Of a stretch of DNA of 64,000 nt, positions 6,976 through 63,219 are shown piece after piece. Source of the DNA: Nitrosarchaeum sp. Lineage in GTDB: Archaea; Thermoproteota; Nitrososphaeria; Nitrososphaerales; Nitrosopumilaceae. How positions within the stretch are numbered: the first letter of the stretch is position 1; every line of letters starts with the position of its first letter. The position numbers and the translations under genes are program-made. The stretch spans positions 25,369-89,368 of the forward strand of contig DASSYQ010000057.1 of NCBI GenBank assembly GCA_035703205.1, read 5' to 3'. The notes below the pieces were generated by a model. That model saw only the letters and a program-made list of their open reading frames with translations, made no database searches and was not told where the DNA came from.

Positions 6976-8430
6976 TTGATGATGAAAAAGGAGTTAACTT
7001 TTGCTTTGAATTATGCATTGAATAAAGGATTTCAAATTCATCCTAATGCATTCAAATTTTTGGAGAATATGGACGCAAAAAAACTAGAAAAAATAATTAA
7101 AGAAATCGTTCGTGAGAAAACAAAACAAAAGTTATTTCAAATTAATCAAGATGATTTAGAAGTTTATTTGGGAATTAAAGAAGATCAAACTTTACAAAAT
7201 GATCATAAAATAGTATTTGATCCAACTTCAAAAATTACTACAGGTGAGGGGGTAAAGGGGTATAATGCTCTTTTTTCAAGTCGTTTTAACAAACTGAAAC
7301 GAATAATCTCTGATAGACCAGAGTCAAGAATGTTAAAGTCGATTGCTTCTATAAAGACTGTAAAATCTGATGATGACATGTATGTTTGCGGTCTTGTGAC
7401 TACGAGAAATACGGAGAGAAATATAATAAAATTAGTAATAGAAGATCCTTCAGGCTCAATTGAGGGAATTGTTTTTGATACTGAACTACAAAAAACAGCG
7501 GGTTCATTGCTTAGTGATCAATTTATCATGGCACGAATAGGTTTTGGAAAAAATACAGGTTTTATCATAAAAGATTTGATTTTGCCTGATATTCCTGATC
7601 AAGCCTCAAATAGGTCTGAAACTGAAACGTATGCAGTTTTTCTTTCAGATCTGCATATTGGTAGTAAATACTTCATGGAAGAGGAATTTACAGAATTTGT
7701 GTCGTGGTTATCTAGTCCAGATCCAATCGCAAGAAAAATTCGTTTTGTGTTAATTTGTGGTGACTTAGTAGATGGTGTTGGGATTTACCCTAATCAGGAC
7801 AAGGAATTAGTTTGCCAAACCATTGAAGAGCAATTAAAAAAGGTTGAAGAACTTCTCAGTAAAATTCCTAATTATATCAAAATTTTCATTATGCCAGGAA
7901 ATCATGATCCTGGTCGTAGGGCATTGCCACAACCAGCAATTCCCAAGAAATACAATCTTGGTTTATGGGAAAAAGAGAATGTGTTTATGGTTGGAAACCC
8001 GTCTATCATATCTTTGAATGGGGTAAAAGTGATGATGTTCCATGGTCAAAGTATTGACGATATTGTAAAAACTACACCAGGCTTAAGTTATGATAAGCCT
8101 ACAAATGTAATGAGACATCTTCTTAGAGCAAGGCATCTCAGTCCAATTTATGGTAGTCAAACTCCCATCGCACCTGAGATTGAAGATTTGATGGTAATTG
8201 ATGAAATTCCGGATATTTTCCATGTTGGCCATGTACATAGAGCAGAATTAGATATGTACAAAGGGATTCTTTTATTAAATTCAGGTTCTTGGCAAAAACA
8301 GACCCCATTTCAAGCCAGTGTTGGAATGACTCCAAATCCTGGAATTGCACTTATGGTAAATTTGAAGACATTCAAAGTTTATCATGAAAATTATAATTCT
8401 AATAAATTAAACAATATCTTGCAAAGTTAG
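6976..8430 (+). CDS. polB: DNA polymerase II (PolD) small subunit DP1
   Basis: Calcineurin-like phosphoesterase motifs (FLSDLHIGS, ICGDLVDG, MPGNHDP, HVGHVH) follow an OB-fold region, at the typical DP1 length. The start may be the TTG at 6976 or the ATG at 6979. Confidence 0.9.
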   Translation: MMMKKELTFALNYALNKGFQIHPNAFKFLENMDAKKLEKIIKEIVREKTKQKLFQINQDDLEVYLGIKEDQTLQNDHKIVFDPTSKITTGEGVKGYNALFSSRFNKLKRIISDRPESRMLKSIASIKTVKSDDDMYVCGLVTTRNTERNIIKLVIEDPSGSIEGIVFDTELQKTAGSLLSDQFIMARIGFGKNTGFIIKDLILPDIPDQASNRSETETYAVFLSDLHIGSKYFMEEEFTEFVSWLSSPDPIARKIRFVLICGDLVDGVGIYPNQDKELVCQTIEEQLKKVEELLSKIPNYIKIFIMPGNHDPGRRALPQPAIPKKYNLGLWEKENVFMVGNPSIISLNGVKVMMFHGQSIDDIVKTTPGLSYDKPTNVMRHLLRARHLSPIYGSQTPIAPEIEDLMVIDEIPDIFHVGHVHRAELDMYKGILLLNSGSWQKQTPFQASVGMTPNPGIALMVNLKTFKVYHENYNSNKLNNILQS

Positions 8431-9615
8431 ATCATCTTTGAAGGTCTTCTTTATCATTTCGGGCGAAACTGTAAGTTTGTACTTTTTTGTTCTCCCATGT
8501 ATTCCTTGATGAATTAATCTACCAGTAATGATTCCAGATAATTCGATTTCACTAAGCATTTGAGTAATTCGCCTTTGTGTTAATTCATCTCGTCCTACTA
8601 CCTTACACAATCCTTTGTAAGATGAATAAATTTCTCCTGTAGATGAACCCCCTGCCTTCATTATTGCAAGAATAACAAGTTTTTCGTGGAGTGGATATGA
8701 TTTCAGAGATGTTTCTTCCTTATTTTCTTCAATTTTTTGAGATGCTTCTCGTACATGATTTTCTGTGACCTTATCTGATTGTTGTCTTTCGGCAATTTCT
8801 CCTGCAACACGAATCAAGTCAATTGCTCTTCTTGCATCCCCATGTTCAGCTGCAGCCAAGGCAGCACATAGATTCAGGGCTGATTCTTCTACTGAGTTAG
8901 GGATAAATGCATCCTTAATTCGCTCTTCCAATATTTTATGAATTTGATCTCTATCATAATTTGTAAAAATTATTTCTTCTTCACCTAGACTACTAATTAC
9001 TCTAGGATCAAGTTTTTCTTTAAACGTGAGATCATTTGAAATCCCAACTAAAGTCAGTGAACCTTGTTTTAGACGTTCATTTGCTCTAGTTAGTTGATAT
9101 AGGATATCTTTCCCTGTTTTTGATACCAATTGTGCAAGATAATCAATCTCATCAATTACAAAAATTGCATTGATTTTGGATTCATCTATAGTAGTTAGTA
9201 TGCGTTTGAAGACTTCACTGGTTGCTAGACCTGTACCTGGTAGTTCTTTATCAGTCAAGCCTAATTGTCGTCCAAAACTTACCAATAACCCATAGAGGGT
9301 GGTTTCTTCTTTTGAGTTTGAATAAATTAGTTTAATTGGGAAATTTGATTTTTCTACTCTTTCTTGAATTTTATTAATTACTTTTTTAACCACCAGTGTT
9401 TTTCCAGTTCCAGGTTTACCATATACAAGTAAATTTGATGGTCTTGAATGTTTAAGGATAGGTAATAGTGATTGTGTTACTTGTTCTTGTTCAGAGTTTC
9501 TATGTTGTATGGTATCTGGAATGTATGTAAAATGTAGGATATCTCTATTTTTAATTATTGATTTTCCAGATTCAGCTGCATCAAGTAACCTATCTATCGG
9601 ATCAGACATACTCAC
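8407..9615 (-). CDS. cdc6: Orc1/Cdc6 replication initiator
   Basis: AAA+ Walker A (YGKPGTGKT), Walker B (IFVIDEID), sensor regions and a C-terminal winged helix. It overlaps the 3' end of polB by 24 nt, in convergent orientation. Confidence 0.92.
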   Translation of the reverse strand: MSMSDPIDRLLDAAESGKSIIKNRDILHFTYIPDTIQHRNSEQEQVTQSLLPILKHSRPSNLLVYGKPGTGKTLVVKKVINKIQERVEKSNFPIKLIYSNSKEETTLYGLLVSFGRQLGLTDKELPGTGLATSEVFKRILTTIDESKINAIFVIDEIDYLAQLVSKTGKDILYQLTRANERLKQGSLTLVGISNDLTFKEKLDPRVISSLGEEEIIFTNYDRDQIHKILEERIKDAFIPNSVEESALNLCAALAAAEHGDARRAIDLIRVAGEIAERQQSDKVTENHVREASQKIEENKEETSLKSYPLHEKLVILAIMKAGGSSTGEIYSSYKGLCKVVGRDELTQRRITQMLSEIELSGIITGRLIHQGIHGRTKKYKLTVSPEMIKKTFKDDLTLQDIV

Positions 9616-9854
9616 ACACCTATGTTTCTACTCAATAGTAACATAATGATAACTAAATTTAGAGAGTAAAGAAGAGAATAGTTATTCTAGTTTAGTTTGT
9701 AATTAATTATTTTTAGTTAGATTTTAGATTTTCAATAAAAAAAAATAAAAAAATAACAGAGTGGAAAGACAGGTGTGTGGGTTAATCCAAACCATATCCA
9801 TTGTTAACAATTTGTTAATTTTATGTTAAGAAATCTTCCAAAAAGGGCATTTTG

Positions 9855-9877
9855 ACCCCTTTATTTCCATTCCAGGC
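9855..9877. repeat. ORB-like repeat, copy 1 (ACCCCTTTATTTCCATTCCAGGC)
   Basis: Identical 23-mer to 9917-9939. The reverse complement GCCTGGAATGGAAATAAAGGGGT has a TGGAA-type element followed by a G-string. Confidence 0.65.
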
Positions 9878-9916
9878 GTTAAGATTGATGTTAACACTGT
9901 TAATCTCCTAAAACAT

Positions 9917-9939
9917 ACCCCTTTATTTCCATTCCAGGC
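9917..9939. repeat. ORB-like repeat, copy 2 (ACCCCTTTATTTCCATTCCAGGC)
   Basis: Perfect direct repeat of 9855-9877, 62 bp downstream. Confidence 0.65.
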
Positions 9940-10099
9940 ATGGATAGAGAGAGAAATAATGATAAATTGATTATTATATTGTTAATAACAAAAAACACTC
10001 TAGGCGTGGTCTAGGCAGTCAATGTTAACAAACCTCTTAGTTAACAAATATTCTGGGATCAATTGAACTGTTAACGGTAGATCCTCATAGATCTTAAAG

Positions 10100-10495
10100 A
10101 TGGCTAAAAAACGCATTAGAATTGATATGGAAGATGCTGATGGAGCACGATATGACATCAAATTAGAGGGTAATGTTACTAGAGAAAAAGTTCTAAAAAT
10201 ATTTGAAATGATGGACTTGATGAATATAGAAGAGGAGCAGGTTACTACCACTAATATGGATTCAATAGGCTCAAAAATATGGCATATTGTAGACAAGTTT
10301 TTCCCATTAGGAAAATTCACATCTACAAATATACTTGAAAAATATGAGGATGAATACAACGAGCCTGTAAAACTAAGTATAATCTCTACATATCTGTCCA
10401 GATTCTCTACCAAAGGTAAGATTGAAAGAATTAGAACTGGGCGTGAATGGACATATCAAATCATAAAACTAAGTCAAAAACAACAAGTTAAGTAA
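10100..10495 (+). CDS. Small origin-proximal protein with a C-terminal winged-helix-like region
   Basis: 131-aa ORF with balanced, charged composition. The overlapping minus ORF 10000..10413 is S/I/F-rich noise. The C-terminus (KLSIISTYLSRFSTKGKIERIRTGREWTYQI) looks like a wHTH recognition helix plus wing. Confidence 0.55.
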   Translation: MAKKRIRIDMEDADGARYDIKLEGNVTREKVLKIFEMMDLMNIEEEQVTTTNMDSIGSKIWHIVDKFFPLGKFTSTNILEKYEDEYNEPVKLSIISTYLSRFSTKGKIERIRTGREWTYQIIKLSQKQQVK

Positions 10496-10649
10496 TTGTA
10501 ATTTTACGCACAATAAGACGGTCTTTACCTAAGATTACCTTGACATATTCACCTTTTTGAATATCCATATACTTACGAAATTGTTTTGGAATAGAAATGG
10601 TCCCAGCAGACGTAATTTTCACTAAGACTTCATTTTCTTGTACTGACAT
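10488..10649 (-). CDS. AbrB/SpoVT-type (swapped-hairpin) DNA-binding protein, 53 aa
   Basis: Below the track cut-off. My translation is MSVQENEVLVKITSAGTISIPKQFRKYMDIQKGEYVKVILGKDRLIVRKITIT. The G-x-I-x-IPK-x-R...G-x-V pattern is the SpoVT-AbrB signature. Confidence 0.7.
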   Translation of the reverse strand: MSVQENEVLVKITSAGTISIPKQFRKYMDIQKGEYVKVILGKDRLIVRKITIT

Positions 10650-10782
10650 AATGTTATTATAATTTAATAATATATATAATTTAATATTTTCATTTTTTTA
10701 TAAAATATAATAGAAATTACCCTTTCTAGCCTATTTTTGATAAAATAAACTAAAATTAATACTGTAAAAACATAGAAAATTA

Positions 10783-11403
10783 TTATGCAATAATAGAATT
10801 TGATTGCATTGCTTCTATCTTCTCTTTACCTTTCTTTGTAATCGAATAAGTGTATGGTTTAGTATTGGTGTTTCTTTGAACATATCCATCTTCAAATAAC
10901 TTCTTCATTAATCTTGAAGTGTGCTCCCTACTTCGTTTTAATGTGATTTGTATATCACGTGATGTCATAGATTTGTCTGTGATTAGATGTAACACATGAT
11001 CAATTGCGTTATTGTGATCTAAATTAGGCATACGATGGACAGAAATTGACTTTTCTTCTCTCAAAATTTCTGTCTTTATTGGTTCAGTAGATGATTTTTC
11101 TATAATTTGTTGATTTTTAGCTAATTTTTCTAAAAACTGCTTCAATTCTAAATTGGGGTCCTCGATCTTCTGTTCAAAACCTTGCATTTCCATAGCATCT
11201 AGGCGTATTTTCATGTCAATTAACTGTCTTTCATAGTACTCTAAACGCTCTATTTGTGATGAATCGATCATTTCATTCTTAGTTTTGATGAATGGACGTA
11301 TTTTGTAATAACTATACAAACCTACCAAACCTACAACAAATGAAATTATCACACCAAGAATCACCTCTGGATCAGGAATTTCTATTAACATCACAAAAAT
11401 CAT
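10783..11403 (-). CDS. Membrane-anchored winged-helix (MarR-like) transcription regulator
   Basis: One N-terminal TM helix (ILGVIISFVVGLVGLYSYY), a central coiled coil and a C-terminal wHTH (MTSRDIQITLKRSREHTSRLMKKLFEDGYVQRNTNTKPYTYSITKKG). Confidence 0.55.
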   Translation of the reverse strand: MIFVMLIEIPDPEVILGVIISFVVGLVGLYSYYKIRPFIKTKNEMIDSSQIERLEYYERQLIDMKIRLDAMEMQGFEQKIEDPNLELKQFLEKLAKNQQIIEKSSTEPIKTEILREEKSISVHRMPNLDHNNAIDHVLHLITDKSMTSRDIQITLKRSREHTSRLMKKLFEDGYVQRNTNTKPYTYSITKKGKEKIEAMQSNSIIA

Positions 11404-12708: not shown

Positions 12709-15700
12709 ATGTCTGAAAATGATGCTATTTCTCGTATTAGTGGTATCAAAATGCCAGATTACTATCTTAATTATTACACTAATCTTTCTAAAGATACCTA
12801 TACTATTTTTGAGCATGCAGCCTTAGCAAAATCCAGTCTGGTAGATTCTTCAGGAATAATTGAGCCTAAAATTGCATTTGATTTAGCAGATCGAGTCGCT
12901 AAAATGCACGATATCGATATTGCTGAACCTTTACGAGAATTATTAAAAATAAATGGAAAAGAACTAACTGCATTAATTATATCAAAAGAAATTGCATTAG
13001 GAAAATATTCTCTAAGTGATGCTACTTTAGAACAAAAATTAGATTTAGCAGTAAGAGTAGGTTTAGCTATAGTTACAGAGGGAGTTACAATTGCTCCATT
13101 ACAAGGAATCAGTGAAGTTAAGATAAAGAAAAACAAAGATGGTAGTGAATACCTCTCTGTATCTATTGCTGGACCAATGCGTTCAGCAGGTGGAACTGAA
13201 TCAGCGGTAACAATACTTATTGCTGATCATGTACGAAAAGCAGTCGGTTTATCAAAATACCAAGCAAATTGTTTTGATGATGAAACTGGTAGATTTGTTG
13301 AAGAGCTTCGAATCTATGAAAGAGAAGCAAGTAGTTTCCAATTTCATATTCTAGATGAAGATATTGAGCATGTTATATCAAATCTACCTGTAGAGTTAGA
13401 CGGCGTAGATACGGATCCTTTTGAAGTTGTAAATCACAAAGGAATGACTCGTATTAAAACAGATAGAGTTAGAGGAGGTGCATTAAGAGTTCTAAATGAC
13501 GGATTAATTGGAAGATCTAAGAAACTACTCAAAAGAATTGAACTTTACAAATTAGATGGTTGGGAATGGCTTGGTGACCTAAAGGGAGCAATTCAAACAG
13601 GAGATAATCAAGAAGATGCTGCAGCTAAAAGAATGCGTGAAGTCATTACAGGAAGATCCGTACTATCTATGCCTAACAAACTAGGTGGTTTTAGGTTAAG
13701 ATATGGTAGAGCATGTAATACAGGATTTGCAGCTGTAGGAATTAATCCTGTAATTGCTGAAATCTTGGATCATACTATTGCTGTAGGTACTCAAGTTAAA
13801 ATTGATATTCCAGGTAAAGGTGCAACCGTAGCTTTTGTAGATTCTATTGATACACCAATTGTTCGACTAAAAAATGGTAATGTAGTGAAAATAAAGGATG
13901 TAAAACATGGAATTGAAATCAAAAGTGAAATTGAAAAAATTCTTCATTTAGGTGATATTCTAATTTCATTTGGAGATTTCTTAGAGAACAATGCTCAACT
14001 TGTACCTACAGGATATGTAGAAGAATTTTGGATTGAAGAATTAAAAGAAAAATTAGAAAAATATGCACCAAATGATGAATTTCTAACCCAATTTCTAGCA
14101 AAAACTCCTACTTTAGATCAAGCATTGAAACTATCACTAGATTTTCAAATACCATTACACCCACATTATCTGTATTACTGGGATCAAATATCTTCCGAAG
14201 AACTCTCAAAAATATTACATCCAAACAAAATCAATGAAAATTCCATCGAATATTCCATAGAAGTAAAAAACATTCTTGAAAAACTTGGTGTACCACACAA
14301 GATGAATAACAACCAAATAATTCTGGAAAAAGAAGAAGCTAGAATTTTCTATAACTTATTGTTTAGACAAGAACCAAAGATTAATGATTTGTCTACGCCT
14401 GAAATTATTTCAAAATCATCAGGAATTCAAATTAAAAACAAATTCTCAACATCAATTGGAGTTAGAATCGGAAGACCTGAAAAAGCAGCTCCTAGACAAA
14501 TGAAACCACCAACACATGTCTTATTTCCAATAAATGATAAAGGAGGTCCAACTAGAGATCTCTTAAAAGCTTCAAGACAAGATAATTTTTTCACCAATAT
14601 TTTCAACAGATATTGTAATGAATGCAATGAACCATCAATTGGAATAAAATGCTCAAACTGTGGCAATAAGACATCAATAATTTACCGCTGTGGTAACTGT
14701 CGTGATAAACTTGATAATCCATTTTGTGAAAAATGTAAACGAAAAGCATCATCTCACTCACATCAGGCATTTCCATTAAAAACAAAGTTGTTAACAGCAC
14801 AAGAAAAAATAGGGTTACGCGCACAAGAGCCATTCAAGGGAGTCAAAGAATTAATCAATCAAGATAGAATTGCAGAACCGCTAGAAAAGGGTCTAGTTAG
14901 ACAAAACTTTGGTCTTACTGTATTCAAAGATGGAACCGTACGTTTTGATGCAACAAACTCCCCTCTCACTCAATTCAAACCATCATGGATTGGAACGTCT
15001 ATTGAAAAACTAAACAGTCTAGGTTATACTCACGATATTGATGGAAAACCACTAACAAACCCAGATCAGATAGTTGAACTTCGAATGCAAGATGTTATTA
15101 TTCCAAATGAAAGTGGAAGATACCTTGTATCTACATGTAAATACATTGATACTATCTTAGAAAAATTTTATGAAAAATCGATTTTCTATAATGTTAAAAA
15201 TACAGACGAATTAGTAGGTCATCTAATAATTGGTTTAGCACCTCACACATCTGTAGGTATTGTTGGAAGAATAATCGGTTATACCGAAACACATGTTTGT
15301 TTTGCTACTCCAAATTGGCATTCTGCTAAAAGAAGAGATGCAGATGGAGATGCTGATTCTATTATGCTCTTAATGGACAGTCTTCTAAATTTTTCAAGAC
15401 AATTTCTTTCTGATAGAATAGGTGGATTAATGGATGCACCATTATTGATCCAACCTCTTGTATTACCACATGAATCTCAACCACAAGCACATAATTTAGA
15501 AGTCGTTAAATTTCTACCACTTGAGTTCTTCAAATCAACTATTCATCAATACAAAGCTTCAGATGTCACATGCGTAGATATTATCAAATCTCGTCTTGAG
15601 ACAGAAAAACAATTTTTTGGATATTACTTTACACATTCTACAACTTCTCTTACTACATCAAAATCACGTAGTGCATATTCAACACTTGGTTCTATGCTTG

Positions 15701-16086
15701 ATAAATTCGACATGCAAATTAAAAATGCTGAATTAATCGATGCAGTAGATACATCTGAAATTGTTTCAAATGTAATTTCTACACATCTAGTTCCTGATAT
15801 TATGGGCAATCTTCGTGCCTATGCTAGACAAAATTTCAGATGTACTGGTTGTGGTAAATCATATCGTAGGATACCATTAATTCAAACTTGTATCTGTGGT
15901 CATGACTTAATTCCAACAATAACTAGAGGTTCTGTCGAAAAATATCTTAAACTTGCAAAGAGATTAGTTGAAAAGTATGATGTTGGCGCATACCAAAAAG
16001 GACGAATTCATGCACTCTCTGACGAAATCGATCTAGTCTTTGGAAAAAATAAAGGTGATCAATCACTATTAACAGATTACACTTAG
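12709..16086 (+). CDS. polC: DNA polymerase II (PolD) large subunit DP2
   Basis: 1125 aa with zinc-finger clusters (CNECNEPSIGIKCSNCG; CGNCRD...CEKC; CTGCGKSYRRIPL..CICGH). The catalytic-centre-like RRDADGDADS lies in a double-psi beta-barrel context. No intein-like insertion is evident. Confidence 0.92.
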   Translation: MSENDAISRISGIKMPDYYLNYYTNLSKDTYTIFEHAALAKSSLVDSSGIIEPKIAFDLADRVAKMHDIDIAEPLRELLKINGKELTALIISKEIALGKYSLSDATLEQKLDLAVRVGLAIVTEGVTIAPLQGISEVKIKKNKDGSEYLSVSIAGPMRSAGGTESAVTILIADHVRKAVGLSKYQANCFDDETGRFVEELRIYEREASSFQFHILDEDIEHVISNLPVELDGVDTDPFEVVNHKGMTRIKTDRVRGGALRVLNDGLIGRSKKLLKRIELYKLDGWEWLGDLKGAIQTGDNQEDAAAKRMREVITGRSVLSMPNKLGGFRLRYGRACNTGFAAVGINPVIAEILDHTIAVGTQVKIDIPGKGATVAFVDSIDTPIVRLKNGNVVKIKDVKHGIEIKSEIEKILHLGDILISFGDFLENNAQLVPTGYVEEFWIEELKEKLEKYAPNDEFLTQFLAKTPTLDQALKLSLDFQIPLHPHYLYYWDQISSEELSKILHPNKINENSIEYSIEVKNILEKLGVPHKMNNNQIILEKEEARIFYNLLFRQEPKINDLSTPEIISKSSGIQIKNKFSTSIGVRIGRPEKAAPRQMKPPTHVLFPINDKGGPTRDLLKASRQDNFFTNIFNRYCNECNEPSIGIKCSNCGNKTSIIYRCGNCRDKLDNPFCEKCKRKASSHSHQAFPLKTKLLTAQEKIGLRAQEPFKGVKELINQDRIAEPLEKGLVRQNFGLTVFKDGTVRFDATNSPLTQFKPSWIGTSIEKLNSLGYTHDIDGKPLTNPDQIVELRMQDVIIPNESGRYLVSTCKYIDTILEKFYEKSIFYNVKNTDELVGHLIIGLAPHTSVGIVGRIIGYTETHVCFATPNWHSAKRRDADGDADSIMLLMDSLLNFSRQFLSDRIGGLMDAPLLIQPLVLPHESQPQAHNLEVVKFLPLEFFKSTIHQYKASDVTCVDIIKSRLETEKQFFGYYFTHSTTSLTTSKSRSAYSTLGSMLDKFDMQIKNAELIDAVDTSEIVSNVISTHLVPDIMGNLRAYARQNFRCTGCGKSYRRIPLIQTCICGHDLIPTITRGSVEKYLKLAKRLVEKYDVGAYQKGRIHALSDEIDLVFGKNKGDQSLLTDYT

Positions 16087-17521: not shown

Positions 17522-19225
17522 ATGGGTATGCAAGCAACTTCTAAAGGCACTATGCCTGTTGTATTGCTAAAAGAAGGCGGTTCTGAAACCAAAGGACGAG
17601 ACGCACAAAAAAACAACATCGCGGCAGCTAAAATAATTGCTGAAATTGTTCATACTAGTCTTGGTCCAAGAGGTATGGATAAAATGCTAGTTGATTCCTT
17701 AGGAGATGTTACTATTACTAATGACGGTGCAACAATTCTAAAAGAAATTGATGTACAACATCCAGCAGCAAAAATGCTAGTTGAAATATCAAAGACAACT
17801 GATAATGAAGTAGGAGATGGTACAACTTCAGCTGTTATTCTAGCAGGAGCTCTTCTGGAAAATGCTGAATCACTTTTAGATCAAGATGTGCATCCAACAA
17901 TTATAGTTGATGGATATAGAAAAGCAGCTAAAAAAGCAAAACAATTCCTTCAAGAAATTGCCGAAACTGTAACTGCAAATGATAAGACAATTCTTAATAA
18001 AATTGCAAAAACATCTATGCAGACAAAATTAGTGAGAAAAGACTCTGATCAATTAGCAGATATTATTGTCAAAGCAGTTCTTGCAGTTGCTGAGAAAGAA
18101 GGTGAGAAATACACTGTTGATATTGATGACATTAAAGTAGAAAAGAAAGCCGGTGGTTCAATTAAAGATTCTGTTATTATTCAAGGTATTGTGCTTGACA
18201 AAGAAATTGTTCATGGTGGAATGCCAAGAAAAATTACTGATGCAAAAATAGCCTTAATTAACAAAGCTCTTGAAATCAGTAAAACTGAAACTGATGCTAA
18301 AATCAATATCTCAAACCCACAACAATTGAAATCATTTCTTGATGAGGAGAATAGAATGTTAAAGAATATGGTGGATAAAGTAATCGGTTCTGGAGCTAAT
18401 GTAGTGTTATGTCAAAAAGGAATTGATGATATGGCTCAACACTATCTTGCAAAGGCCGGAATTATTGCAGTTAGAAGAATTAAAGAGAGTGATCTCACAA
18501 AACTTGCAAAAGCAACTGGTGCTAGAATTGTAAACAATCTTGATGATATATTTGAAAAAGATTTAGGTGATGCTCAACTAGTAGAAGAAAGAAAAATTGA
18601 AGAAGATAAATGGGTATTCATTGAAGGTTGCAAACATCCAAAATCTGTTACATTACTTCTTCGTGGAGGTTCTCAAAGAGTAGTTGATGAAGTTGAACGT
18701 TCTGTTCATGATTCACTGATGGTAGTAAAAGATGTAATTGAAAAACCAGAAATTGTAGCAGGTGGTGGTGCACCTGAAACTTATGCTGCAACTAAAATAA
18801 GAAGTTGGGCTAAATCATTAGAAGGCAGAGAACAACTAGCTGCTGAAAAATTTGCAGATTCTTTAGAGTCAATTCCTTTAACACTTTCAGAAAACGCTGG
18901 AATGGATCCAATTGACACACTAACTGTCCTTCGTTCTAGACAAATGAAAGGAGAAAAATGGACAGGAATTGATGTCATGAAAGGTAAAATTGGAAATATG
19001 AAATCAGGTGATATCATTGAACCATTAGCTGTTAAACTTCAAATTGTATCTGCAGCTGCAGAAGCAGCCTGTATGATTCTTAGAATTGATGATGTAATTG
19101 CCACACAGAAATCTGCAGGACCACCACCTGGAGCAGAAGGCGGCATGCCTGGAATGGGCGGAATGGGTGGCATGCCTGGAATGGGCGGAATGGGTGGCAT
19201 GCCTGATATGGGCGGAATGATGTAA
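17522..19225 (+). CDS. ths: Thermosome subunit (group II chaperonin)
   Basis: [24 protein letters not shown] and VAGGGAPE motifs, with a C-terminal GGM-repeat tail. Confidence 0.95.
19142..19222 (+). repeat. 27-nt tandem repeat (2 perfect copies plus 1 diverged) encoding the thermosome GGM tail
   Basis: GGCATGCCTGGAATGGGCGGAATGGGT occurs at 19142-19168 and 19169-19195. The third copy, 19196-19222, has changes. Confidence 0.9.
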
Positions 19226-62663: not shown

Positions 62664-62907
62664 CAGGTGTCATTTACAGTCTTATCATAAGAGTCTTTTT
62701 GTAATAAATAATTTAAAATTCTTATAGACAGTTATTATAATTTGAAAAATTCGTAATAATCAGTACGTTTTTCGTTAATAAAATAATTATTTAATTATTG
62801 AATAATTTTTGTTCTAAAATATTTTCTAAATATTAATACTTGAACTAAAAATTAAACAATTTCAAAAAGTAATAGTCTTATATAGAACAACTAAAATTTA
62901 GAATTCG

Positions 62908-63135
62908 TTGAATCGTACAAACCAAAGCACGATCATTAAAGAAGCAATTAATTCTTATCTTGACAAAGGGGTAACTGACAAACAGGATATCTATACCAAA
63001 GTCGTAGATGAACTTGGTGTTCCAAGACCTACTGTTAGAAGGGTCGCAAGAGATTTGAGAAATGAATTACTACAAAAAATCCAGATCTTACAATCAGATA
63101 TGCCTAAAACATCTACTTCTGAAGAAGACGAATAA
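62908..63135 (+). CDS. Small helix-turn-helix protein (75 aa)
   Basis: VVDELGVPRPTVRRVARDLRNEL is a plausible HTH, followed by an acidic tail. TTG start. Confidence 0.4.
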   Translation: MNRTNQSTIIKEAINSYLDKGVTDKQDIYTKVVDELGVPRPTVRRVARDLRNELLQKIQILQSDMPKTSTSEEDE

Positions 63136-63219
63136 ACTAGGCTCTTTTTTTCTTTTTACTTAATATCGATTTTTAATATCAGCATTACTGTTATAAACAA
63201 TGAATTTTTCAAATAATTT

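What the first reader, a model, noticed from the sequence alone, without database searches (positions are those of the whole stretch)
9616..10099. Probable chromosomal replication origin beside orc1/cdc6: perfect 23-bp ORB-like repeats plus an A/T-only tract
The 484-bp gap upstream of the Orc1/Cdc6 gene is the largest non-coding region I found in the window. It holds two identical copies of ACCCCTTTATTTCCATTCCAGGC (9855-9877 and 9917-9939, 62-bp period). On the other strand the unit reads GCCTGGAATGGAAATAAAGGGGT. That is a TGGAA-type element followed by a G-string, the general layout of Orc1-bound origin recognition boxes in other archaea. To the left (~9640-9757) the sequence is almost pure A/T and ends in A9-T-A7-T, a plausible duplex-unwinding element. 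The PolD small subunit, Orc1/Cdc6 and PolD large subunit genes surround it.
Basis: partly seen in the sequence, partly recalled or inferred. Interest (0 to 1): 0.7.

Follow-up and report, generated by a model that had tools for sequence, protein, structure and literature searches.

The report
Archaeal replication origin beside orc1

Summary
Two identical 23-mers sit at 9855-9877 and 9917-9939 (0 expected by chance), beside a confirmed Orc1/Cdc6 gene. Read on the minus strand they match the published pan-archaeal ORB consensus at 17 of 20 positions, G-string included. They are the only such matches in 64 kb (0.04 expected). The pair, with its 61-62 bp spacing, orientation and distance from orc1, is present in all 77 Nitrosopumilaceae loci that hold upstream DNA.

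This pair is an inverted repeat that brackets the A/T tract (84% A+T, not "almost pure"). Distant relatives have canonical ORBs at these same positions and in the same polarity. The layout is therefore orc1 <- ORB | DUE | ORB -> ORB <- ORB <-, a standard Orc1-dependent oriC. It is probably orthologous to the single origin mapped in Nitrosopumilus maritimus.

In vivo firing, Orc1 binding and genome-wide skew could not be tested.

Three conserved features are not explained by the ORB/DUE model:
- about ten TGTTAAC-type motifs;
- an invariant 31-nt A/T core;
- an always-adjacent uncharacterised winged-helix gene.

Verdict: new member of a known kind, modest interest.

The parts
8407..9609 (-). 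orc1/cdc6 initiator gene (Orc1-1 type). The likely start is the ATG at 9609; the ORF list starts it at the GTG at 9615.
   Evidence: Pfam Cdc6_lid, Cdc6_C and AAA. TIGR02928 scores 370 bits against a cut-off of 181. Closest solved structures are A. pernix ORC1 2V1U (6e-83) and S. solfataricus Orc1-1 2QBY_A (1e-81). Called as 400 aa in identical contigs.
9610..9633 (-). ORB4: a degenerate ORB-like element, GAGTAGAAACATAGGTGTGTGAGT on the minus strand, abutting the orc1 ATG. Its G/T string may double as a Shine-Dalgarno sequence or 5' leader.
   Evidence: Left arm of a 24-nt inverted repeat matching at 20 of 24 positions; 0 of 300 shuffles reach 20. GGTGTGTGRGT occurs only twice in the window, 0.01 expected. 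Positions 9610-9620 are near-invariant in 78 genomes.
9634..9758 (.). A/T-rich tract, the candidate duplex-unwinding element. It probably also holds the orc1 promoter. It contains an invariant core at 9690-9720 and A9-T-A7-T at 9737-9754.
   Evidence: 84% A+T against 68.7% for the window, top 0.3% of 125-bp windows. It is bracketed by the inverted ORB3/ORB4 pair. The 31-nt core GTTTAGTTTGTAATTAATTATTTTTAGTTAG is essentially invariant in 78 genomes. In L085 and L089 the A/T peak also lies between the inverted ORBs.
9759..9782 (+). ORB3: an ORB-like element, GAGTGGAAAGACAGGTGTGTGGGT, inverted relative to ORB4. It shares GAGTGGAAAT with the commonest form of ORB2 in relatives.
   Evidence: GAGTGGAAA and GGTGTGTGGGT are at least 95% conserved although no gene starts here. 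L085 has a canonical ORB with a long G/T string (GGGGGTGGGGGTGT) at the same position and polarity.
9803..9830 (.). Three GTTAA[C/T/G] motifs at 9803, 9814 and 9825, spaced 11 bp apart.
   Evidence: Conserved at 95% or more in 78 genomes.
9855..9877 (-). ORB1 (proximal to orc1): GCCTGGAATGGAAATAAAGGGGT on the minus strand.
   Evidence: Exact repeat. Matches the Ori-Finder 2 'Common' ORB motif with 3 mismatches; only 2 such hits in the window against 0.04 expected. Present in 77 of 77 relatives.
9879..9905 (.). GTTAAG (9879), GTTAAC (9890) and GTTAAT (9900; GTGAAT in most relatives), lying between the two ORBs.
9917..9939 (-). ORB2 (distal): identical to ORB1 in this genome. In relatives the commonest form is GCCTGGAGTGGAAAT...GGGGT.
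   Evidence: The spacing to ORB1 is 61-62 bp in all relatives.
9978..9993 (.). Conserved block TTGTTAATAACAAAAA.
   Evidence: At least 95% conserved within otherwise variable sequence.
10001..10019 (.). Conserved block CTAGGCGTGGTCTAGGCAGT (CTAGGC occurs twice). Function unknown.
10024..10075 (.). Three GTTAAC palindromes (10024, 10040, 10070) just upstream of the small gene. They are possible operator sites.
   Evidence: Conserved in 57-60 of 78 genomes as exact 10-mers. L084, where the neighbouring protein is 39% identical, has GTTAAC three times at the same place.
10100..10495 (+). Divergent 131-aa gene: an uncharacterised protein with a C-terminal winged helix-turn-helix fold, always next to this region.
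   Evidence: No Pfam or NCBIfam family above cut-off. The AlphaFold2 model has pLDDT of 94 or more over residues 61-120. Foldseek matches Fur, MecI/BlaI, ArsR and TubR DNA-binding domains. Syntenic in 77 loci and in L084, L085 and L089.

Best explanation
This is the chromosomal replication origin (oriC) of a Nitrosarchaeum-like thaumarchaeon, of the standard Orc1/Cdc6-dependent archaeal type.

Inferred mechanism:
1. Monomers of the Orc1 protein encoded next door bind four polar sites. ORB1 and ORB2 are the two strong, canonical sites. ORB3 and ORB4 are two degenerate sites with an interrupted G-string.
2. ORB3 and ORB4 face away from each other across a 125-bp A/T-rich tract. Their GGAAA halves are next to the tract and their G/T strings are distal.
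3. ATP-bound Orc1 at these two sites recruits MCM, and the duplex opens in the A/T tract (9634-9758).
4. ORB1 and ORB2, 61-62 bp apart, raise local Orc1 occupancy.
5. Because ORB4 abuts the orc1 start codon, Orc1 binding probably also autoregulates orc1.

What is shown: the motifs, their statistics, their polarity, their conservation, and the identity of the initiator gene. What is inferred: binding, MCM loading, unwinding and firing.
For: - The 23-mers are exact, and none is expected by chance.
- On the minus strand they read TGGAATGGAAATAAAGGGGT, against the published 'Common' ORB motif TCCA[CG]T[TG]GAAA[TC][GA]AAGGGGT (PMC4164010). That is 17 of 20 positions. These are the only two hits in 64 kb at 3 or fewer mismatches, 0.04 expected.
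- The adjacent gene is an Orc1-1-type initiator.
- The ORB pair is present in 77 of 77 Nitrosarchaeum/Nitrosopumilus loci that hold upstream DNA, with the same orientation, 61-62 bp spacing and about 250-320 bp distance from orc1.
- The inverted ORB-like pair brackets the A/T tract. It matches at 20 of 24 positions, and 0 of 300 shuffles do as well. The composite pattern and the 11-mer GGTGTGTGRGT each occur only at these two places. Both elements are near-invariant in 78 genomes, and ORB3 is not at a gene start.
- In distant relatives the same intergenic region carries canonical ORBs (0-1 mismatch to the common motif beyond the allowed degeneracy) at the same positions and polarity. L085 has minus/plus ORBs around an 82% A+T peak. 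L089 has minus, plus, minus.
- Gene order PolD-small, orc1, gap, small wHTH gene ... PolD-large is conserved.
- N. maritimus, in the same family, has a single origin mapped by marker frequency analysis (Pelve et al. 2013, cited in PMC4010727 and PMC11005403). Ori-Finder 2's prediction, which rests on ORBs next to replication genes, matched it (Table 2 of PMC4164010).
Against: - No functional data exist for this genome.
- GC skew within 64 kb is uninformative. It changes sign repeatedly, and the cumulative maximum lies at about 13-15 kb.
- ORB3 and ORB4 match the 20-nt consensus only at 14-16 positions and fall below my ORB weight-matrix threshold.
- ORB4's conservation could be due partly to a Shine-Dalgarno sequence or leader for orc1.
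- The A/T tract is not the most A/T-rich stretch nearby; 10655-10779 is richer.
- About 300 of the 490 bp is occupied by other conserved motifs that the ORB/DUE model does not explain.
- Orthology to the mapped N. maritimus origin is inferred. The Pelve 2013 paper was not readable here, and the N. maritimus sequence was not among the 80 loci.
- In some archaea, orc1-adjacent origins are dormant or dispensable (PMC5663688 and PMC11005403 abstracts).
Confidence: 0.85

Rival explanations
1. It is an Orc1-binding control region rather than an active origin. The ORBs let Orc1 regulate transcription of orc1 and the divergent gene, or they mark a dormant origin, while replication starts elsewhere or by recombination.
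For: ORB4 abuts the orc1 start codon, and the orc1 promoter must lie inside the A/T tract. Origins next to cdc6 are dispensable in Thermococcus kodakarensis and T. barophilus, and some haloarchaeal origins are dormant (abstracts listed). No firing data exist for this genome.
Against: The family has one mapped origin in N. maritimus, and an ORB-based prediction matched it. The full ORB-DUE-ORB architecture is conserved far beyond what a promoter needs. Regulation and origin function are not mutually exclusive.
Confidence: 0.08
2. It is an ordinary divergent promoter/operator region bound by transcription factors unrelated to replication. On this view the resemblance of the 23-mer to ORBs is coincidental.
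For: Two divergent genes flank the gap. About ten GTTAA-type motifs and other blocks that are not ORBs are conserved. Three small DNA-binding-type genes lie next door.
Against: A 17-of-20 match to the ORB consensus with an intact G-string occurs twice, against 0.04 expected. Distant relatives have fully canonical ORBs in the same gap. The neighbour is the initiator gene itself.
Confidence: 0.04
3. The inverted repeat 9610-9633 / 9759-9782 forms a hairpin or cruciform, for example a long orc1 5' leader that hides its ribosome-binding site, rather than two protein-binding sites.
For: 20 of 24 positions are complementary. The left arm covers a possible Shine-Dalgarno sequence (AGGTG, 7 nt before the ATG).
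Against: Across 77 distinct sequences there are no compensatory changes. Where one arm varies (9621-9624, 9630, 9631, 9633) the other does not follow, and pairing drops to 16-58 of 77. No Rfam family matches here. The loop would be 125 nt of A/T.
Confidence: 0.02

Closest known systems
Single chromosomal origin of Nitrosopumilus maritimus SCM1 (marker-frequency mapping, Pelve et al. 2013, Mol Microbiol 90:538; listed in DoriC / Ori-Finder 2)
   Same: Same family (Nitrosopumilaceae). Many Nitrosopumilus genomes among the 80 loci carry the same ORB pair, spacing and gene order. An ORB-based prediction beside a replication gene matched the mapped origin.
   Different: This genome is a Nitrosarchaeum-type MAG (neighbouring protein 100% identical to a Nitrosarchaeum sp. 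entry). Orthology to the mapped site is inferred, because I could read neither the paper nor the SCM1 sequence.
Sulfolobus oriC1, Aeropyrum pernix ori1 and Pyrococcus oriC (Orc1-1-type origins with ORB elements)
   Same: All lie beside orc1/cdc6. All have polar ORBs with a GGAAA half and a GGGGT G-string, an inverted ORB pair flanking an A/T-rich DUE, and extra ORBs outside it (PMC12141716 introduction; PMC5333045). As in Pyrococcus, PolD genes lie in the neighbourhood (recalled from memory).
   Different: In ORB1 and ORB2 the left half of the usual dyad (TCCAnnGGAAA) is replaced, giving a direct TGGAA-TGGAA repeat (CCTGGAATGGAAAT). The two DUE-flanking ORBs have an interrupted G/T string (GGTGTGTGRGT) instead of GGGGT. 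The organism is a mesophile with 31% G+C.
ucm motif and UBP protein of Sulfolobales origins (PMC12141716)
   Same: A short, strongly conserved motif inside the A/T-rich DUE, plus non-ORB motifs, suggests a second origin-binding factor. In Sulfolobus such a motif is essential for firing.
   Different: No sequence relation was shown. UBP binds DNA through beta-hairpins, whereas the candidate neighbour here has a winged-helix fold. The resemblance is by analogy only, and no membership is claimed.

Membership tests
Archaeal Orc1/Cdc6-dependent replication origin (ORB-type oriC) | Lies in an intergenic region next to an orc1/cdc6 (or other initiator) gene | tested here: met
   The Orc1/Cdc6 gene at 8407-9609 (-) directly abuts the gap.
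Archaeal Orc1/Cdc6-dependent replication origin (ORB-type oriC) | Repeated origin recognition boxes matching the ORB consensus (TCCA..GAAA half plus G-string) | tested here: met
   Two hits to TCCASTKGAAAYRAAGGGGT at 3 mismatches, 0.04 expected, and no others in 64 kb. The right half and G-string are perfect. The left dyad half deviates (CC changed to GG).
Archaeal Orc1/Cdc6-dependent replication origin (ORB-type oriC) | A/T-rich duplex-unwinding element flanked by ORBs in inverted orientation | tested here: met
   A 125-bp tract of 84% A+T lies between inverted ORB-like elements at 9610-9633 (-) and 9759-9782 (+). These two elements are degenerate here (14-16 of 20 positions), but canonical ORBs take their place in L085 and L089.
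Archaeal Orc1/Cdc6-dependent replication origin (ORB-type oriC) | Elements conserved in the syntenic region of relatives | tested here: met
   77 of 77 loci with upstream DNA keep both ORBs at 61-62 bp spacing. Footprint alignment of 78 sequences.
Archaeal Orc1/Cdc6-dependent replication origin (ORB-type oriC) | Extremum of genome-wide nucleotide disparity (GC skew / Z-curve) | tested here: inconclusive
   Only 64 kb is available. The skew changes sign several times, and the cumulative maximum is near 13-15 kb. Whole chromosomes of relatives are not held.
Archaeal Orc1/Cdc6-dependent replication origin (ORB-type oriC) | Orc1/Cdc6 binds the ORBs | not testable with these tools
   Needs EMSA, footprinting or ChIP.
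Archaeal Orc1/Cdc6-dependent replication origin (ORB-type oriC) | Replication initiates here in vivo (marker frequency, 2D gels, initiation-point mapping or ARS activity) | not testable with these tools
   Shown only for the related N. maritimus, according to reviews. The primary paper was not readable.
ucm/UBP-type origin accessory system (Sulfolobales) | The ucm sequence motif inside the DUE and a UBP-family protein | not tested
   The ucm consensus is not given in the text I read, and no UBP homologue was searched for. The neighbouring protein has a different fold, wHTH against beta-hairpin saddle. No membership is claimed.

The most novel reading that the evidence does not exclude
Thaumarchaeal origins may carry a second layer beyond Orc1 and ORBs. 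That layer would be a lineage-specific array of short repeats together with an invariant A/T core inside the DUE. The repeats are TGTTAAC, about ten copies, here; CGTTAAC in L084; TTCCCGGTAGCG in L085; and ATATGTGAAGT in L089. They would be read by one of the always-adjacent, uncharacterised DNA-binding proteins: the 131-aa wHTH, the TrmB-like wHTH or the AbrB-like protein. This accessory or licensing factor would be functionally analogous to ucm/UBP or WhiP in Sulfolobus.
Probability: 0.25. Interest if true: 0.55.

Novelty: new member of a known kind. Interest (0 to 1): 0.3.

Why it matters
The result gives a base-level map of oriC for the Nitrosarchaeum/Nitrosopumilus clade of ammonia oxidisers. 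It defines four ORBs with their polarity, the DUE, and an ORB consensus for the clade (GCCTGGA[AG]TGGAAAT[AT][AT][AG]GGGGT). This is useful for genome annotation, for setting chromosome start coordinates, for growth-rate estimates from metagenome coverage (peak-to-trough ratios), and for designing Orc1 binding or shuttle-vector experiments in a group that has no genetic system. It does not change what is known about archaeal replication. The unexplained GTTAAC array and the conserved wHTH neighbour are the only parts that could lead somewhere new.

Tried and rejected
- **Hairpin or cruciform between the ORB3 and ORB4 arms.** Rejected: there is no compensatory covariation in 77 distinct sequences.
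- **Known RNA family or tRNA in the gap.** None found.
- **Extra ORBs elsewhere in the window.** A weight matrix built from 154 relatives' ORBs gives weak hits at 19147 and 19174. These lie in the coding Gly-Gly-Met repeat tail of a 567-aa ORF, read here as a chaperonin (thermosome) from that tail without a domain search, so they were rejected.
- **Partial inverted ORB copy inside orc1 at 9516-9531** (I10/I11). It is coding sequence and only 14 of 22 positions match. Not pursued.
- **GC skew in the window.** Uninformative.
- **Bacterial promoter/terminator scan.** Not applicable to archaea and not enriched.
- **Pelve et al. 2013.** Not held in the library. Four literature searches gave only second-hand statements about the N. 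maritimus origin.
- **Small wHTH protein as reader of the lineage-specific repeats.** Weakened: its putative recognition helix (S-T-Y-L-x-R) is invariant across lineages whose repeats differ completely.
- **GTTAAC depletion outside the origin.** Not supported once dinucleotide shuffles are used.

Full report
**Observation.** The window at 9855-9877 and 9917-9939 reads ACCCCTTTATTTCCATTCCAGGC in both places, 62 bp apart. With up to three mismatches allowed, these are the only two copies in 64 kb, and none appeared in 100 dinucleotide-preserving shuffles. The run A9-T-A7-T is at 9737-9754.

The gene assignments hold. PolD small subunit is at 6976-8430 (+), Orc1/Cdc6 at 8407-9615 (-), and PolD large subunit at 12709-16086 (+). 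Between the gap and PolD-large lie a 131-aa ORF, a 53-aa MazE/AbrB-like gene, a 206-aa winged-helix gene, a 120-aa ORF and a PcrB/GGGP synthase gene.

Three details need correction:
- Orc1 most likely starts at the ATG at 9609 (400 aa, as called in identical contigs).
- The A/T tract is 84% A+T over 9634-9758, against 68.7% for the window. It is in the top 0.3% of windows, but it is neither 'almost pure' nor the richest stretch nearby.
- The 'largest gap' claim holds only after accepting small ORFs in two other gaps.

**Are the repeats ORBs?** On the minus strand the unit is GCCTGGAATGGAAATAAAGGGGT. The 'Common' ORB motif published with Ori-Finder 2 is TCCA[CG]T[TG]GAAA[TC][GA]AAGGGGT (PMC4164010). 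Searching the window with that motif at up to three mismatches returns exactly these two sites, against 0.04 expected. The GGAAAT-AAA-GGGGT part is perfect. The left half of the usual dyad is altered, so the element contains a direct TGGAA-TGGAA repeat.

The adjacent initiator is closest to the two Orc1-1-type proteins solved on ORB DNA: A. pernix ORC1 (2V1U, 6e-83) and S. solfataricus Orc1-1 (2QBY_A, 1e-81).

**Conservation.** A scan of one genome per species with the Orc1 protein returned 80 loci from Nitrosarchaeum, Nitrosopumilus and related MAGs, at 85-96% protein identity. All 77 loci that hold upstream DNA carry two ORBs in the same orientation, 61-62 bp apart and about 250-320 bp from orc1. 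The three without ORBs are truncated at or near the gene. The clade consensus is GCCTGGA[AG]TGGAAAT[AT][AT][AG]GGGGT. Gene order around the gap is the same in every locus.

A footprint alignment of 78 gap sequences shows that much more than the 23-mers is under constraint.

- *A second ORB-like pair.* The A/T tract is bracketed by a 24-nt inverted repeat, 9610-9633 and 9759-9782, matching at 20 of 24 positions. No shuffle out of 300 reaches 20.
  - Read outward from the tract, the arms are GAGTAGAAACATAGGTGTGTGAGT and GAGTGGAAAGACAGGTGTGTGGGT. Each has a GGAAA half identical to the commonest form of ORB2 in relatives (GAGTGGAAAT), a 4-nt spacer and an interrupted G/T string.
  - The composite pattern, and the 11-mer GGTGTGTGRGT alone, occur only at these two places in the window.
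  - Both arms are near-invariant in relatives, and the right arm is not at a gene start.
  - Where the arms vary they do not co-vary, which argues for two DNA sites rather than a hairpin.
- *Support from distant relatives.* I reached these through the neighbouring small protein.
  - In L085 (27% identity) the gap holds a perfect 30-nt inverted repeat of canonical ORBs with a long G/T string (TTCCAGTGGAAATGAGGGGGTGGGGGTGT). The minus copie sits next to orc1 and the plus copy on the far side of an 82% A+T peak.
  - L089 has ORBs in the order minus, plus, minus, which is the window's order.
- *An invariant core.* The 31-nt sequence GTTTAGTTTGTAATTAATTATTTTTAGTTAG (9690-9720) lies inside the A/T tract.
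- *GTTAA-type motifs.* About ten [T/A]GTTAA[C/T/G] motifs lie between 9803 and 10075.
  - Two groups are spaced about 11 bp apart.
  - Five of the window's thirteen GTTAAC sites fall in these 317 bp (binomial P about 4e-9).
  - In the 77 relatives the density is 14 per kb here against 0.06 per kb in the rest of the loci.
- *A conserved CTAGGC-repeat block* at 10001-10019.

**Mechanism.** The anatomy is orc1 <- [ORB4 <-] [A/T tract] [ORB3 ->] ... [ORB1 <-] ... [ORB2 <-] ... -> small gene. This is the standard archaeal layout, an A/T-rich DUE flanked by ORBs (PMC5333045). In Sulfolobus oriC1 the inverted ORB2/ORB3 pair and the DUE between them are each required for firing (PMC12141716).

I infer the following steps:
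- Orc1 monomers bind each ORB with defined polarity.
- From my memory of the 2V1U and 2QBY structures, the winged helix sits on the GGAAA half and the AAA+ domain on the G-string side. That would place the winged helices next to the DUE here.
- Orc1 then recruits MCM, and the duplex opens in 9634-9758.
- ORB4 touches the orc1 start codon, and its AGGTG could also be a ribosome-binding site. Autoregulation of orc1 is therefore likely, and this is a caveat on reading ORB4's conservation purely as an origin feature.

None of the binding or firing steps was tested.

**Relation to known origins.** Reviews state that N. maritimus has a single origin mapped by marker frequency analysis (Pelve et al. 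2013). Ori-Finder 2's prediction, based on ORBs beside replication genes, matched it. I could not read the primary paper or the SCM1 sequence, so orthology is inferred from the many Nitrosopumilus loci that share this exact architecture. On that basis this is a new member of a known kind, not a new kind.

**Side lead.** The divergent 131-aa gene has no family assignment. All 3974 database relatives are 'hypothetical'.
- An AlphaFold2 model (mean pLDDT 80; 94 or more over residues 61-120) has a C-terminal winged helix-turn-helix. It matches the DNA-binding domains of Fur, MecI/BlaI, ArsR and TubR at Foldseek E of 0.006-0.04, so this is fold-level support only.
- The family has 227 clusters at 50% identity. 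In three of four informative distant contexts the gene again sits divergently from orc1 across a 550-727 bp ORB-bearing gap. In L087 it does not.
- Those gaps each carry their own second repeat: CGTTAAC, TTCCCGGTAGCG or ATATGTGAAGT.
- The protein's putative recognition helix is invariant across these lineages.
- This resembles the Sulfolobus ucm/UBP situation by analogy only. UBP has a different fold.

**Verdict.** Novelty is low. The added value is the complete anatomy and the unexplained conserved accessory motifs.

Noticed in passing
window 9803-10075: About ten conserved [T/A]GTTAA[C/T/G] motifs lie here, including five GTTAAC palindromes. Two groups are spaced about 11 bp apart. The motif is more than 200-fold enriched here across 77 relatives. 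It is not an ORB, and its binder is unknown.
   Followed up: partly
window 10100-10495 (+): An uncharacterised 131-aa protein with a predicted C-terminal winged-helix fold and an invariant S-T-Y-L-x-R helix. It is encoded divergently from orc1 across the origin, even in relatives only 27-39% identical.
   Followed up: partly
window 9690-9720: A 31-nt A/T core (GTTTAGTTTGTAATTAATTATTTTTAGTTAG) inside the presumed unwinding element is essentially invariant in 78 genomes. It contains the palindrome TAATTAATTA and a TTTAGTT direct repeat 21 bp apart.
   Followed up: no
L085:3274-4000, L089:3275-4000, L084:4009-4558: Distant relatives' orc1-adjacent gaps have canonical ORBs plus their own second repeat. 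L085 has TTCCCGGTAGCG four times, L089 has ATATGTGAAGT four to five times, and L084 has CGTTAAC/GTTAAC five times.
   Followed up: partly
L087:2117-2929: Here the small wHTH gene is not next to orc1. It follows an 813-bp gap after a tRNA-synthetase gene. No ORB within 4 mismatches lies in that gap, and one canonical ORB lies at 124-143.
   Followed up: no
window 10651-10779: This is the most A/T-rich stretch of the window (88-97% A+T). It lies between a 53-aa MazE/AbrB-like gene (10488-10649, -) and the 206-aa winged-helix gene, and no ORBs flank it.
   Followed up: no
window 10783-11403 (-): A 206-aa protein with a hydrophobic N-terminal segment and a C-terminal TrmB/HTH_27-like winged helix. 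It is syntenic in all relatives but much less conserved (61-87% identity) than its neighbours.
   Followed up: no
window 19140-19225: The Gly-Gly-Met repeat tail of a 567-aa ORF (17522-19225), which I read as a chaperonin (thermosome) from that tail without running a domain search, contains GCCTGGAATGG twice. This gives weak false ORB hits.
   Followed up: yes
window 8407-8430: The 3' ends of the convergent PolD small-subunit and orc1 genes overlap by 24 bp. The overlap is conserved in relatives.
   Followed up: no
window 62664-63219: A 556-bp region with a 90% A+T stretch (62775-62874) and a credible 75-aa helix-turn-helix-like ORF (62908-63135). No direct repeats were found.
   Followed up: partly
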